This document shows, in pieces, positions 27,666 through 36,600 of a stretch of 64,000 bases of DNA; the stretch's first letter is position 1, and every line of letters begins with the position of its first letter. Origin of the DNA: Stylophora pistillata. Lineage: Eukaryota. The position numbers and the translations under genes were made by a program. A model generated the notes under the pieces. It made no database searches and had not been told where the DNA came from. It worked only from the letters and a program-made list of their open reading frames with translations. The stretch is from the NCBI RefSeq assembly GCF_002571385.2, contig NW_019217940.1, positions 1-64,000 on the forward strand, written 5' to 3'.

Positions 27666-30600
27666 CTAACAGATTATTGCTCTTCTCTCTCCTCTTACCT
27701 CAATAAACTGTAAAGCCTTCTTGGTTTTTAGTGCCTCACTGTTTATTGTCGTGACAGAGCCATGATGGCATATTATTTTCCTTTGTTTTCTTCTCTCTAT
27801 ATTTTCAGGTGGGTAACCATATTGATGTAGTAAGTGGGAAATGGACAGCTCAGGATGCAGGCATTGGAGCTGGTGTTGACTCTTACTTTGAGTATCTCCT
27901 TAAAGGAGGTATTCTGTTTAGTTCTCCGAGATTGGTGGACATGTTCAAAGGTGAGCCAGGATAATTTACTACTCTGGGTACTGGTACAGTATTTCTTGTT
28001 TAAACACTAACATCACAGCACATGTGGTCCAAGTTTGATTCACAGACCTGGGGCCTGTTTCTTGAAGGTTGTGGTAACTTAATGGGCCTGGATAGCTATT
28101 CTGTTTTCTTTCTAGATGGGGGTTTCAAAATGTTTGAAAATTTTCAAGACTATCAGCCAAATAAACAAAATGGACTCTATAGTTAACATACTTAATCTGT
28201 AATCTCTAAATTTTTACTTCAAAATATTGCTTTGGGTCAGTACATGGAATTCCAGTGCGTCTGTATATGCAAAAACTGCCAACTACTAGAGGATGCTGTT
28301 GCTCTTTGTTGTCAACTCTGTTTAAATTGCAAAATTACAATACAAAGTTACTTCAGGCACCCATTGTACTTTCAATTTGACACAGTTGTTTATTTTATCA
28401 TTATTTATTCTTATTTTCTGTCGAAGAATTTTATGACAAAGTTCAGCAGTACCTGAAGATTAGTGATTGGTATGTGTGGGTCCATATGGATAAAGGTCAG
28501 ATTACAATGCCAATCTTTCAGTCTCTCGATGCCTATTGGCCAGGACTTCAGGTGAGTGACAGATGTTATTGATTGGTAGATTGCAAAACTTATTGCAACA
28601 CAACCATGTGATTGTGATTGCAGGCATCTCCTTTGTAAATTGATAGCACTTGATGTTAGTCAAAATTTTGTAGTCTTAACCCATTGATACCTGAATGAAA
28701 TTGCCAGCGACCCACCCCTAATTCCTTGGCGATTTTTTAACACTTCAGCGCGAGCGCTAAAAGTAAACCATATGTGCAGTAAACACACACACAAGATCAG
28801 GTTTCAAGACTGTTTATTTCAAGTCAGATAATTCAGCGGCCAAACTATCAAATAAAAACGGCCAAAAGAGTTCAACTCGATGTCCCAAACCAATCTGATA
28901 GTAAGAAATTAATTCTTTTTTTACCGTGCGACAAAATCCCGAAATTGTTTTCCGTTGGAAAGGAAAGTAAAATGCGCCAAACTAAACCTAGACTTGCCCC
29001 AAGTCGTCTTTTTATGCTCGTACGGACTTTGAGAAAGTCTAAACTAAACCAAACATCAACTGATGGCACTTACAGTGAGATAAATTTGCAGCTAATTTAC
29101 CAAGAAATATCGGGTAATAAGAGCGAAACATAAGGTAAAAACCACTTAGAAAAGAGAACAAATAATTTGTGAAGCGGGGCAAAACGCCAAAATTGATTTT
29201 CACAGCGAATGATAAGCGAATTGTGTAATTGATGACGACGAACGCAAACCATATTTTTTACAATATTTCTAGTATTTTTTATGTGGCAAAATTAGCGGCC
29301 AAATACCAAATAAGATGAAGTCAAACAGAAGCCAGATAATCTCTAAAAACAAACCCGATTACGAGAATCGTACATCACAATTTCCTCGCCCGACTAATGT
29401 AAACAAATCAACACGGCAAAACCGGAAATGTAAATAATTTCTAAATACAAAACACGGCTAAACCCAGTAATACTAATCATTACGGTAACTGCTATTCTTA
29501 ATTATTCGAGTTTCTTTTAAGGTTGTATCAACACTTGAATAATGAAGACTCAGGAGATGAAGGATAAAGCGAAACGTTTATAAATTTACAACATATGATA
29601 ATCTGCGAAGCAAACTTCCTTACAAAGAGCTACGCTGCACTGCACGCATTCAAAAGTACTTTCTACAGGGCGACCTTTGGGAGTTTTTGTACCCACCCTC
29701 TTACACTGAACACATTGCCTTTTTCTTCCCTTAATTTTATCAATAAAATGTTTCCCTTCGCTCCCCTCCTGAAGAAAATGAGCTTCAATCTTACGGCGCT
29801 TGGATAATTGTGCCGCAGACACCCTAGTCGAGTATCCCCCAATCAACTGTTTAGCTAACTCTGTCCTAAAGTTCAATTGCCTAAGCTTACCCATCCCTTG
29901 GCTTAACCGACGGTAATTACAAAGAACAAAGGCATTACATATAGCTACATCGATAAGAAACCAAAATATATACCGATACCACTTGCTAGAAGAACGACCC
30001 ACTGAATAATATTCGCGTAATTGATCGGCGCGATCAACACCTCCCATAGAGCTATTGTACAAATCAATTACAACTGGTTTTGGAACTTCCACATCACCCC
30101 GATTAACTTCAACATCATCGGCTAGAGGACTTACATTAGTTGCCATAACACTGACATCCCGTTTGTCATGCCACTTCGTGAAAACAACGTGGCCTTTCTG
30201 ACGAACTAACTTCTCCCCAACCCGCAATTAGCCATTTTCAAAACGAGCGGCGGTCTGGGTACGATTTGCCACCCTAGAGGCTCTTGGGATCGTTTGGAGG
30301 GACAGCAAGAACATGGTGGACAAGAGCAATGCAACCGTGCGAGACGCTCTCAAGGTTATTCTGACAGAAGAAGATATACCTGGTGCAAAAATTCCTCGCG
30401 AAACTGTAGAACAATGTAGCGTCGTTCAATTGAAAAGGTGGTTGCTGTGCAGGGGAGCAAAGACTACGGGAAATAAGAAAGCATTGATAACAAGGTAGGT
30501 TCACTCGAGGTGTATATTTTCATTTAGTGGTGTACATATGAGCTTAAATTATATCGAAGGAGAAATTGTGTCGTTTTATTTTGTTTCATTCCAGTCATAT

Positions 30601-33600: not shown

Positions 33601-36600
33601 AAATACGGCGACGGCCGTCGGCTTCTTTTCCTAAGTAGACATCAAAATTCAAATCGTACCCGTTACTAGAATCGGCCGCCATCCAAACTTTAATTCCGTA
33701 CTTAGTAGGTTTAGCTGGCATATATTGCCTGAAAGATAACCTCCCCCTAAAACCAATCATGCCCTCATCTACAGAAAGATTCTTAGTAGGTTTAAACTTA
33801 GTTTGGCAATTACCCAAAATGGAGTTAAATATCGGTCTAATCTTAAAAAGGCGATCAAAGCCTGGTGTTCCCCGAGCGGGCTCTACACTAGAATCACTAA
33901 AATACAAATAACTACTAATTTCTTCATATCTGTTCTTGGCCATAACCTTCTTAATGCCCTGGTTTCCAAAATAGTCATCAGATGACCAATATAACGCCAA
34001 CTGAGGGAGACTATTGATACCCATAACTATGTTTATTCCAATAAATGCCTTGATCTCTGCACGCGTAACAGGAACGAAATTTGCGAGGCGCTCGGTTGAA
34101 CTTGAAAGTTTTTGGCAAGCGTTGCGATTGGTTTCTTCGACAATTAAATCCCATAAATTATCATCTACAAACTCTACAAAGTAATCTAAAGGTTTAGGAA
34201 TATCAGGTAAGTTAAAATTAAGACCAGTTGCTGCTGTGAAGTCCGGGATGGGGAAGTCGCTGAGATGGTCAGTCCATCGAGCTTCTTCTTCTTCTTCGTC
34301 ATCGGTACCTCCAGGTGCAAGGCCGTCACTGTCGTCCTCCAAGCCTTCAAGATCTACATCACTATCACTATCATTATTGGTACGTCTACGCTCAAACCCA
34401 TCAAAGCTTTCTTCATCCCCTGAGTCATCAAAAACAGCCGGAATAATCGGGTACTCTCTCATCCTTCTCCGCCATTTTCGCACGCAAGTCAATCGCACCA
34501 CCTGAAATATCCGTGGTTTCGGGTTTCTATGGTAATAGTCCTGTGGCATTTACACAGCCGTTATAAATGTAGTTCAAATATATTGCTTTTAGAATCTGTC
34601 CCTGGTGATGATGATTTGGAGCTCTTCTAGGGATCCGGACATGAGGGGTACTCAAAGGAATTCCAAACGTGCGTTTCGGTTATCGAATTTCGGACCCAGC
34701 CACCCTACCAGAGGTAGGGGCGGCACAGGCGTCCTTTGGCTCTCATGAGTGGCCAAGACAGAAATTTTCCTTACAATATCAATACAACGTCAAGCAGACA
34801 AGAGATGAGAGTGAAGGAAAAATATCTATTTAGGTGATCACTAGTTTCTCAAAACTAACCATCATAAGAATTGTATGGCTGATCACGAGAATTACCATTC
34901 AGATCCTGGTAGTGACAGGGTTAACATTTTAAATTACTGGTAATATTTTTTATAGACACTATGGGGTGATATCGGAGCAGCATCAAGAACTCTTCAAAAG
35001 TACCACAGTGTCTGGCGACATTTTGGATTCATCCCTGAGTTTTATCAGATTGCATCTGGAGAGCCTTACTCTGGAAGAGCTGGATATCCTCTGAGACCAG
35101 GTAGAAAAACGGTAATCATTTCTGATGGCCAAGGCTATTTTTCACACTTGGAGCCATGTATTTTCCTGTTATTTTACACCTTTCTCCTGCTCCTACTATT
35201 CCTAATAAAAATCTAGCAAAATAATACCCTGAGTGCTAGAGGGTTTTCTTTTTTTTAGGCAGCAAAACCACTAACAGTGAGCAGCAAAGCTGTGATCATT
35301 GGCAAGCAAAAATGCTAATGATTATGGCTTTAAATTGTCACTCACTGTTACCCCTAGTGGTTTTGCTAAAAAAGAAAGAGAGCCTCTTGCACCAAGGATA
35401 GCAAAAGAAATGAAACAGTTCTTTTCTACCATTAAAAAAAGTGTGTAAGTTAACCAGTTTTGTACCAAAATTGAAAAGCAACTGTTGTGTTTGTCATTTC
35501 TTCTTACTCATTCCATTTAAGGATACAGAACTGATACAGGTAGCTTTCTTTTTACTGCCTCATTCAGTCAAAGCCACATTTGTCAACACAATTATATTAT
35601 GTCGAGAAACAAGCAAAATAATCTACCCAAACAAAAATGCACATTGTTTGTAGGGTAATACTACCCCTCAGCTTTTTTTCGAAGAGGATCTTGTCCACCT
35701 AGCAGTTTAATTTATTTGCTTTTAACAGCAGTTGTTGCATTTCTTCTAGAGCTGATTGAGAGTGCCATGTACTTATATCGTGCAACAAAGGATCCATATT
35801 TTCTTGAAGTAGGGAGGGATATGCTGGAATCAATAGAAAGCAGTGCTAGAACCCCATGTGGATATGCTACAGTGAGTTAAAAGCTGAACTTGTAAAACAG
35901 TAAAATCTTTTGTTTGAGTGCATAACTAACTGCATTAAATAGGAATTGGTGTGTATTGATTGACTAATTGAGTGCAATGGCTATATAGTGCTACAGAATG
36001 TAGGTAAGGGCTAAATTTGAAAGGTTTAGGTTTTTACTCATATTTGATGTATAGATTAGGGGTATTATTTTTGAGGATTTTAGTTTACTTTCAGGAAAAA
36101 TTAAAGGAGGTGAAGAATATGCCTACTGTGATGTTAATGTGTAAATGGTTGAGGGTAATACTCTTTCCAAAGGTGTCTCCTTGTTGATACTGTTTCATAC
36201 TACTTTTTTTTTCAGATAAAAGATGTGAAGACACATGAGCAAGAGGATAGGATGGAGTCTTTTTTCTTAGCAGAAACAACCAAGTATTTGTATCTTTTAT
36301 TTGATGAACATAATTTCATTCATCAGAGCAATGGCTCAGTGGATCAACAAATCAGACCCACACAGTCACCTTCATGCAATCCTGGCTCTGCAGGTTACTT
36401 ATTTAACACAGAAGCTCATCCAATTGATATTGGAGCAATACACTGTTGCTCACCTTCAAGACTGACATACATACCTGATGAATTATTTAGAACTCGAGAT
36501 ATGATAGCAGAAAACTCCCAAGAACTGAATTATGAAATTAATGAGGATTTGAATAATGAAGATGTGCAAAAAACGTTCACCGGTGCTTACACTTGCAAGG

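What the first reader, a model, noticed from the sequence alone, without database searches (positions are those of the whole stretch)
29586..34462. piggyBac transposase knocked out by a clean nested insertion and restorable in frame
Removing the inner element and one target copy gives ...GCA AAA AAT AAA TTG CGG GTT... and an uninterrupted 1689-nt ORF (562 aa) with the catalytic aspartates and Cys-rich tail intact. Both layers therefore look recent. Precise excision of the inner element would restore the outer ORF, a possible transposon-on-transposon switch (inference). The stack sits antisense in an intron of an intact EDEM2.
Basis: seen in the sequence. Interest (0 to 1): 0.7.

Follow-up and report, generated by a model that had tools for sequence, protein, structure and literature searches.

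The report
Young transposon inside dead piggyBac fossil
A very young jumping gene sits inside a much older, already crippled one in a coral gene's intron; removing it on paper rebuilds the old reading frame, but other samples carry the uninterrupted and separately broken version, so this is likely ordinary decay rather than a switch, although the newcomer likely drives odd hybrid RNAs of the host gene.

Summary
The anatomy is real: removing the insert and one target copy gives a stop-free 562-codon piggyBac frame with its catalytic aspartates, antisense in intron 9 of an intact 12-exon EDEM2. The interpretation mostly fails. The inner element is an ISL2EU transposon (THAP-DDE transposase plus YqaJ gene, A|AT|T target) from a very young family: 10 assembly loci at 100% identity. 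The outer piggyBac is not young. It has lost its 5' TTAA and terminal bases, most of its 5' subterminal region is replaced by a MITE remnant, and its native start codon is already frameshifted by a 1-nt insertion; the 562-aa frame starts at a downstream ATG. Empty-site alleles occur in 3 of 6 RNA runs; two carry their own frameshifts, and allele differences look neutral (7 synonymous, 18 replacement). The genome holds other open piggyBac frames. So this is a polymorphic insertion into a decaying fossil, not a switch. Residual interest: an apparently active ISL2EU family for testing the unexplained YqaJ gene, and, in carriers, an internally deleted form plus plus-strand splices from the stack onto EDEM2 exon 10.

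The parts
20308..36668 (+). EDEM2 host gene, 12 coding exons; the stack lies in intron 9 (28552-34955)
   Evidence: tblastn with P0121/P0123/P0131; GH47 Pfam; spliced joints in RNA contigs
28676..28715 (-). 3' end of the outer piggyBac: TTAA plus terminal repeat starting CCC, diverged from paralogue C15
29586..30225 (-). 3' part of the piggyBac transposase frame (third catalytic Asp, Cys-rich tail, stop)
30229..33414 (.). ISL2EU transposon, termini TAGCC...GGCTA, AT duplication at 30227-30228 and 33415-33416 within an AATT site; full length 4051 nt in C1411 and C1068
30313..31945 (+). ISL2EU second gene: weak SAP match (E 2.5e-4, below Pfam cut-off), GT-AG intron 30495-30620, YqaJ/alkaline-exonuclease domain; cut by the gap here, complete in C1068
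31946..31946 (.). single N; 866 nt of the full element are missing here
31947..33298 (-). ISL2EU transposase: THAP, HTH_Tnp_4, DDE_Tnp_4; cut by the gap here, 502 aa in C1068
30751..32705 (.). stretch skipped in RNA contigs of carriers X1, X10, X8 (2-nt microhomology, no splice motif): inferred internal deletion leaving a 1231-nt element
33085..33095 (+). GC-type splice donor after 33087, joined to EDEM2 exon 10 in X8
33414..34475 (-).
34497..34716 (.). remnant of a roughly 1.25-kb palindromic MITE (ends CACAGG) replacing most of the piggyBac 5' subterminal region; holds a GT donor after 34531 joined to EDEM2 exon 10 in X1
34717..34733 (-). remnant of the piggyBac 5' terminal repeat; TTAA and about 8 terminal bases are missing
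34732..34924 (-). older, separate piggyBac-type MITE (TTAA-CCCT start, 77% to copies in C23 and C1669) fused to that remnant

Best explanation
This is an old piggyBac copy with a destroyed 5' end and a frameshifted native start codon, sitting antisense in EDEM2 intron 9, into which a very young ISL2EU transposon has inserted at an AATT site in some samples but not others, and it is likely decaying neutrally rather than acting as a switch. Shown: the clean insertion, the lost 5' TTAA and terminal bases, the MITE remnant in the 5' region, the 1-nt insertion at 34445, empty-site alleles, and frameshifts in two of them. Inferred order: (1) a piggyBac inserted at the right-hand TTAA of an older MITE; (2) a 12-nt deletion removed that TTAA and the first terminal bases, and another MITE entered and was largely deleted, which immobilised the element; (3) alleles diverged by about 1-1.5% and gathered independent frameshifts; (4) an ISL2EU copy landed in one haplotype, by chance at one of 17 AATT sites of the frame. 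Any insertion with a clean target duplication is 'restorable' on paper. A secondary, less certain step (about 0.55): the copy at this locus is internally deleted and has lost the 3' ends of both genes, so its YqaJ promoter would read through the rest of the stack and splice onto EDEM2 exon 10.
For: 5' end damage. Native ATG: all four paralogues and P0001-P0004 start MA(E/D); the window's equivalent ATG stops after 15 aa; the base at 34445 is absent in X15 and X17 alleles and in paralogue contigs. Empty site joined with 255 nt on each side in X15, X17, X18 (3 of 6 RNA runs laid, counting X1, X8, X10 as RNA from their spliced joints); X15 and X17 contigs reach the locus-specific 5' junction. X15 has a 26-nt tandem duplication and X17 a 13-nt deletion in the frame. 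Listed allele SNPs in the frame: 7 synonymous, 18 replacement, pN/pS 0.68, binomial p 0.46 against neutrality. A frame with 13 random substitutions stays stop-free 55% of the time. Inner family: 10 loci at 100%, 14 of 14 distinct ends with AATT, both genes complete in C1068, identical contigs in non-carriers. Read-through: joint 30750-32706 in 3 of 3 RNA carriers and 0 of 3 RNA non-carriers; splices 34531-34956 (X1) and 33087-34956 (X8).
Against: The polymorphism test is weak (25 SNPs; one search's table was cut, so about 2 X15 differences are missing). dN/dS against paralogue C15 is 0.34, which shows past selection, though that is expected from the transposing phase. X18's contig shows no frameshift over the part of the frame it covers (from 34089 down), so an intact allele is not excluded, and RNA contigs cover the whole fossil in non-carriers. 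The deletion joint is absent from both DNA runs (X2, X4) and from the assembly (0 of 14 matches end there), and no contig ties it to this locus. Each chimeric splice is seen in one run, with 28-29 letters on the short side. Carriers differ from the window by 0-4 letters per listed piece and may be one genotype, so they are not independent.
Confidence: 0.82

Rival explanations
1. Domesticated piggyBac gene (PGBD-like): the element lost mobility but the host keeps its transposase, and the ISL2EU insertion is a recent loss-of-function allele.
For: Terminal repeat lost while catalytic residues are kept; RNA contigs span the uninterrupted frame in X15, X17, X18 and stop near 28990-29010 in X1, X15, X18, a weak hint of a transcript end; present in all 8 runs laid.
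Against: 3 of 4 haplotypes seen carry frameshifts (window, X15, X17); pN/pS 0.68 not different from 1; six changes at otherwise invariant columns (within the 2-11 range of other rows); contigs are unstranded and the locus is intronic.
Confidence: 0.08
2. Transposon-on-transposon switch: precise ISL2EU excision restores a working piggyBac transposase and re-awakens the family.
For: The join is exact; related PIF/Harbinger elements excise precisely (PMC2836001 passages, PMC4561436 abstract); the inner family looks active and both ends are intact, so excision of this copy can be expected occasionally.
Against: After excision the native ATG still ends after 15 aa and only leaky scanning to 34462 would give protein; the element cannot move in cis; no intact copy of its subfamily was found among five other loci pieces; no allelic precise-skip joint in carrier runs (contigs drop rare forms); other open piggyBac frames exist. 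Nothing suggests regulation.
Confidence: 0.05
3. The nesting is an assembly artefact: a collapsed repeat was placed into a gap.
For: Single N inside the insert; 100% identity among assembly copies may partly reflect gap filling from pooled reads.
Against: Junction-crossing contigs in five runs, exact target duplication, and empty alleles in other runs. Only the interior length of this copy is doubtful.
Confidence: 0.03

Closest known systems
ISL2EU group of the PHIS superfamily (Han et al. 2015, PMC4482050, passages and supplements 1-2; e.g. ISL2EU-ADig of Acropora digitifera, 4088 bp, TSD AT, 525-aa transposase, 646-aa YqaJ protein)
   Same: Two genes (THAP-HTH-DDE transposase and YqaJ exonuclease), about 4 kb, A|AT|T target, conserved D-K-D-D-P-R-E spacing.
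   Different: Termini read TAGCC rather than the usual GG; this family looks currently active and polymorphic; the second gene has a weak SAP match and an intron. No sequence comparison with Repbase entries was possible.
Coral piggyBac transposons and PGBD4-like annotations (P0001, P0002 at 85-87% identity; AmiPB elements and CMITEs in PMC2872659, passages)
   Same: DDD transposase PF13843 with PF13842 tail, TTAA target, CCC terminus at the 3' end, neighbouring TTAA MITE.
   Different: This copy lacks the 5' TTAA and terminus, has a frameshifted native start, and is interrupted.
mPing/Ping/Pong precise excision (PMC2836001 passages; PMC4561436 abstract)
   Same: Same superfamily as the inner element; excision of the element plus one duplication would restore the site.
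   Different: 3-bp TWA duplication and a Myb/SANT partner; precise excision is untested for ISL2EU, with its 2-bp duplication and YqaJ partner.
Domesticated intronic piggyBac fusions such as CSB-PGBD3 (recalled, not from a call)
   Same: piggyBac frame inside a host intron, with chimeric splicing.
   Different: There the element is sense, conserved and acts as a terminal exon; here it is antisense and decaying, and the chimeric RNA would start in the inner element and splice into host 3' exons.

Membership tests
ISL2EU (inner element) | Transposase with THAP, HTH and DDE domains | tested here: met
   Pfam THAP, HTH_Tnp_4 and full-length DDE_Tnp_4 (model 1-158) on the C1068 copy
ISL2EU (inner element) | Second ORF with a YqaJ exonuclease domain | tested here: met
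   YqaJ E 4.7e-12; spliced in RNA contigs of 6 of 6 RNA runs
ISL2EU (inner element) | A|AT|T target with AT duplication | tested here: met
   14 of 14 distinct ends AATT; empty site AATT. In this family alone a 4-bp duplication fits equally; a sister family has TATT at 2 of 5 ends, one copy with TATT and AATT ends, which favours the 2-bp reading
ISL2EU (inner element) | PHIS catalytic spacing D(19-29)K(29)D(18-40)D(11-19)P(18-28)R(3)E (PMC4122938) | tested here: met
   22/29/28/11/23/3
ISL2EU (inner element) | Terminal repeats usually start with GG (typical, not defining in the paper) | tested here: not met
   Starts TAGCC; sister families TCGCC and TC(C/A)CC
ISL2EU (inner element) | Falls in the ISL2EU clade of a DDE tree | not tested
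   No reference ISL2EU sequences were fetched
Autonomous piggyBac (outer element) | DDD transposase with Cys-rich tail | tested here: met
   (after removing the insert)
Autonomous piggyBac (outer element) | TTAA duplication and CC(C/T) terminal repeats at both ends | tested here: not met
   Present at 28676; lost at 34733. Filed as a decayed copy, not as an autonomous element
Autonomous piggyBac (outer element) | Open frame from the family start codon | tested here: not met
   ATG 34475 stops after 15 aa
Domesticated PGBD gene | Purifying selection after insertion | tested here: inconclusive
   pN/pS 0.68, p 0.46, low power; frameshifts in 3 of 4 haplotypes argue against
Domesticated PGBD gene | Orthologous position in related species | not testable with these tools
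   G000 has no relatives held; protein hits carry no genomic context

The most novel reading that the evidence does not exclude
The inner element belongs to a currently jumping ISL2EU family with both genes intact and spliced, a ready substrate for a first test of what the YqaJ nuclease does in transposition; and the copy in EDEM2 is an internally deleted form that has lost both terminators, acts as a portable promoter, and makes hybrid RNAs of the last three EDEM2 exons the main product of that part of the gene in carrier corals.
Probability: 0.4. Interest if true: 0.55.

Novelty: new member of a known kind. Interest (0 to 1): 0.33.

Why it matters
The switch would have mattered but is not supported; nested insertions that are removable on paper are expected whenever a target duplication is clean. 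What remains useful: Han et al. (PMC4482050, passage) state that the function of the second ORF is unknown, and my searches listed no transposition assay for an ISL2EU element. A family with identical copies, a presence/absence polymorphism and RNA from both genes makes that question testable. If the read-through is right, it is also a clear case of a young DNA transposon changing the RNA of a conserved ER quality-control gene in some corals only.

Tried and rejected
(1) Outer ends at TTAA 34921 and TTAA 28676 as one terminal-repeat pair: rejected; 34924-34732 is a separate MITE. (2) Joint 30226-33422 in DNA runs X2 and X4 as an empty allele: rejected; it carries seven other letters and the 37-nt deletion of paralogue C15. 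(3) Joint 30750-32706 as a splice: no GT-AG, GC-AG or reverse motif within the 2-nt shift. (4) Search for a deleted copy in the assembly: none among 14 matches; absence from DNA contigs X2 and X4 is uninformative because contigs drop rare branches. (5) Contig depths: exon 10-11 joint against the intron-9-spanning joint is 8.8 (X10) and 7.3 (X8) in carriers and 1.4 in X15; the spanning joint is not listed for X1 and X18, and the downstream joints are not listed for X17 and X18. In DNA run X4 the inner contig has depth 259 against 9-11 for unique flanks. The tool states that contig depth cannot rank parts of a gene or give copy number, so these are hints only. (6) Translation of the hybrid RNA: the 34531 splice puts an ATG in frame with a C-terminal EDEM2 piece of about 240 aa without the N-terminal part, but 11 other ATGs precede it in 33414-34531, so protein is doubtful. 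(7) Spy membership (no duplication, AAATTT target, one ORF): rejected; two ORFs, and the bases flanking AATT vary freely. (8) Paper searches for a nested piggyBac switch, coral TE-chimeric transcripts and deletion-driven read-through listed nothing directly comparable; only titles and abstract starts were seen, and the library lacks most subscription papers and Repbase reports. (9) Earlier scan notes: none on this element. No fold or complex prediction was run.
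Full report
Observation. The frame carries D232, D312, D414 and D417 and the Cys-rich tail; Pfam's piggyBac model is split exactly at the insertion, and homologues read through the junction without gain or loss. The host gene is EDEM2, with 12 stop-free coding exons, and the stack fills intron 9, 28552-34955. Protein hits and run labels point to a stony coral.

Inner element. It has 81-nt inverted ends and two convergent genes. The single N at 31946 replaces 866 nt: two other loci hold the complete element (4057 nt with both AATT sites), with a 502-aa THAP-HTH-DDE transposase and a YqaJ-domain protein. RNA contigs of all 6 RNA runs show a GT-AG intron in the second gene, and its first exon weakly matches SAP, below Pfam's cut-off. 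Ten assembly loci match at 100% over 944 nt or more (40 of 54 candidates scored), and 14 of 14 distinct ends abut AATT. Gap filling could inflate identity in the assembly, but DNA run X4 gives one 3510-nt contig without other letters, and contigs of X15, X17 and X18 are identical over the listed middle part. These features match ISL2EU as defined in PMC4482050 (passages; Table S2, 30 of 41 places; Fig. S1-S2 text) and the catalytic spacing in PMC4122938 (passages). The termini start with T instead of the usual GG; a sister family with TATT and AATT ends favours the 2-bp AT duplication. A clade test was not run.

Outer element. The 3' end is a normal TTAA-CCC terminus, diverged from its paralogue. 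The apparent 5' end at 34921 belongs to a separate MITE of about 190 nt. The true 5' repeat survives only as a remnant at 34717-34733; TTAA and about 8 bases are gone, most simply by a 12-nt deletion between two GA dinucleotides (inferred). The next 220 nt are two pieces of a palindromic MITE family and replace the subterminal region that paralogues keep. The nearest paralogue, C15, is 92% identical in the 5' half and 84% in the 3' half and is itself frameshifted; the other pieces found (C1417, C2393 twice, C3107) are internal deletions. The outer layer therefore carries several lesions besides the nested insertion and cannot move in cis.

Other samples. Of 24 runs listed I laid 8. X1, X8 and X10 (spliced, so RNA) and X2 and X4 (unspliced across EDEM2 introns, so DNA) carry the insertion and match the window almost exactly; they may be one genotype and may include the assembly's source. 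X15, X17 and X18 (poly-A RNA, three study codes, possibly related campaigns for X17 and X18) have contigs across the precise empty site with 255 nt on each side, about 1-1.5% different from the window. X15 and X17 contigs reach the MITE junction unique to this locus, so they are alleles rather than paralogues; for X18 this rests on shared SNPs. X15 has a 26-nt duplication and X17 a 13-nt deletion in the frame; both lack the extra base at 34445. X18 shows no frameshift over the part it covers. The 25 listed coding differences split 7 synonymous to 18 replacement (pN/pS 0.68, p 0.46), and 13 random substitutions leave this frame open 55% of the time, so an open frame needs no selection. Against C15, dN/dS is 0.34, as expected from the mobile phase (inference).

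The switch. Precise excision is the rule for mPing (PMC2836001 passages; PMC4561436 abstract), so an occasional revertant is plausible. It would recreate a state close to one that already segregates, still with a broken native start and a dead 5' end, in a genome where 22 of 77 scored matches to P0002 span at least 450 aa without a stop, including a TTAA-flanked copy with a 557-aa frame in C41. I give the switch 0.05 and domestication 0.08.

What the insertion may do. All three RNA carriers, and none of three RNA non-carriers, show a joint from 30750 to 32706 with 2-nt microhomology and no splice motif. It removes 2820 nt, including both stop codons and the space between them. X1 shows a GT-AG splice from 34531 and X8 a GC-AG splice from 33087 onto the true EDEM2 exon 10 acceptor; both are plus-strand, like the YqaJ intron. 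The simplest model is that this copy is a 1231-nt deletion derivative whose YqaJ promoter has lost its terminator and reads into the host's last three exons. A single N, where other gaps are long N runs, fits an over-filled short gap (inference). Against it: the joint is absent from DNA contigs X2 and X4 and from the assembly, no contig ties it to this locus, each splice is in one run with under 31 letters on the short side, unspliced contigs into exon 10 occur in non-carrier X17 too, and normal intron-9 splicing persists in carriers X8 and X10. I put this at about 0.55. A protein product is doubtful.

Literature seen. Passages: PMC4482050 (plus supplements 1 and 2 as above; supplement 3 had no match to the term searched), PMC4122938, PMC9179366, PMC12730594, PMC2836001, PMC2872659, PMC11304231. 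Abstract and outline: PMC4561436. Searches listed no nested piggyBac switch and no ISL2EU transposition assay; I saw listings only, and Repbase reports and subscription papers were out of reach. CSB-PGBD3 is recalled.

Verdict. Observation confirmed; interpretation partly supported. An ordinary nested insertion of a new, apparently active ISL2EU member into a decaying piggyBac, with a moderately supported effect on host RNA. Interest 0.33.

Noticed in passing
G000 C1078, C165, C118 (L074-L076, L084, L085) and C779, C487, C368, C218, C183 (L079-L083): Two further ISL2EU-type families (67-73% DNA identity to the inner element), each with copies 99.9-100% identical to one another; three such families look young at once.
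   Followed up: partly
G000 C597, C125, C11, C50 and others (L058-L062): Palindromic 1.1-kb MITEs built only from the left end of the inner element (bases 1-677 plus inverted 1-446), 85-90% identical: an older wave of the same family.
   Followed up: partly
L009-L020 (without L017); window 34497-34716: Abundant palindromic element of about 1.25 kb with CACAGG ends, superfamily not identified.
   Followed up: partly
G000 C41:383253-386100 (L022): Full-length piggyBac with TTAA at both ends and a 557-aa frame, 62% identical to the window's protein; C18 has a related open frame with a damaged 5' end.
   Followed up: partly
window 34475-34733: The distance from the 5' repeat remnant to the ATG is 258 nt, against 257 and 278 in paralogues, although the sequence between is replaced; possibly coincidence.
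   Followed up: no
window 27300-27565: Repeat in EDEM2 intron 7 that attracts very many RNA contigs.
   Followed up: no
window 46318-47937 (+), 10207-10656 (+): Asparaginase_2 exons and a RING-finger exon.
   Followed up: no
window 54818-55279 (-), 62337-62714 (-), 7319-7678 (-): Frames without Pfam hits that resemble, from recall only, a Penelope GIY-YIG endonuclease fragment, a syntrophin PH exon and an exosome RRP42 exon.
   Followed up: no
window 2512-2954; 43683-43703: A short-period tandem repeat (seen in the translations) and a 21-N gap.
   Followed up: no
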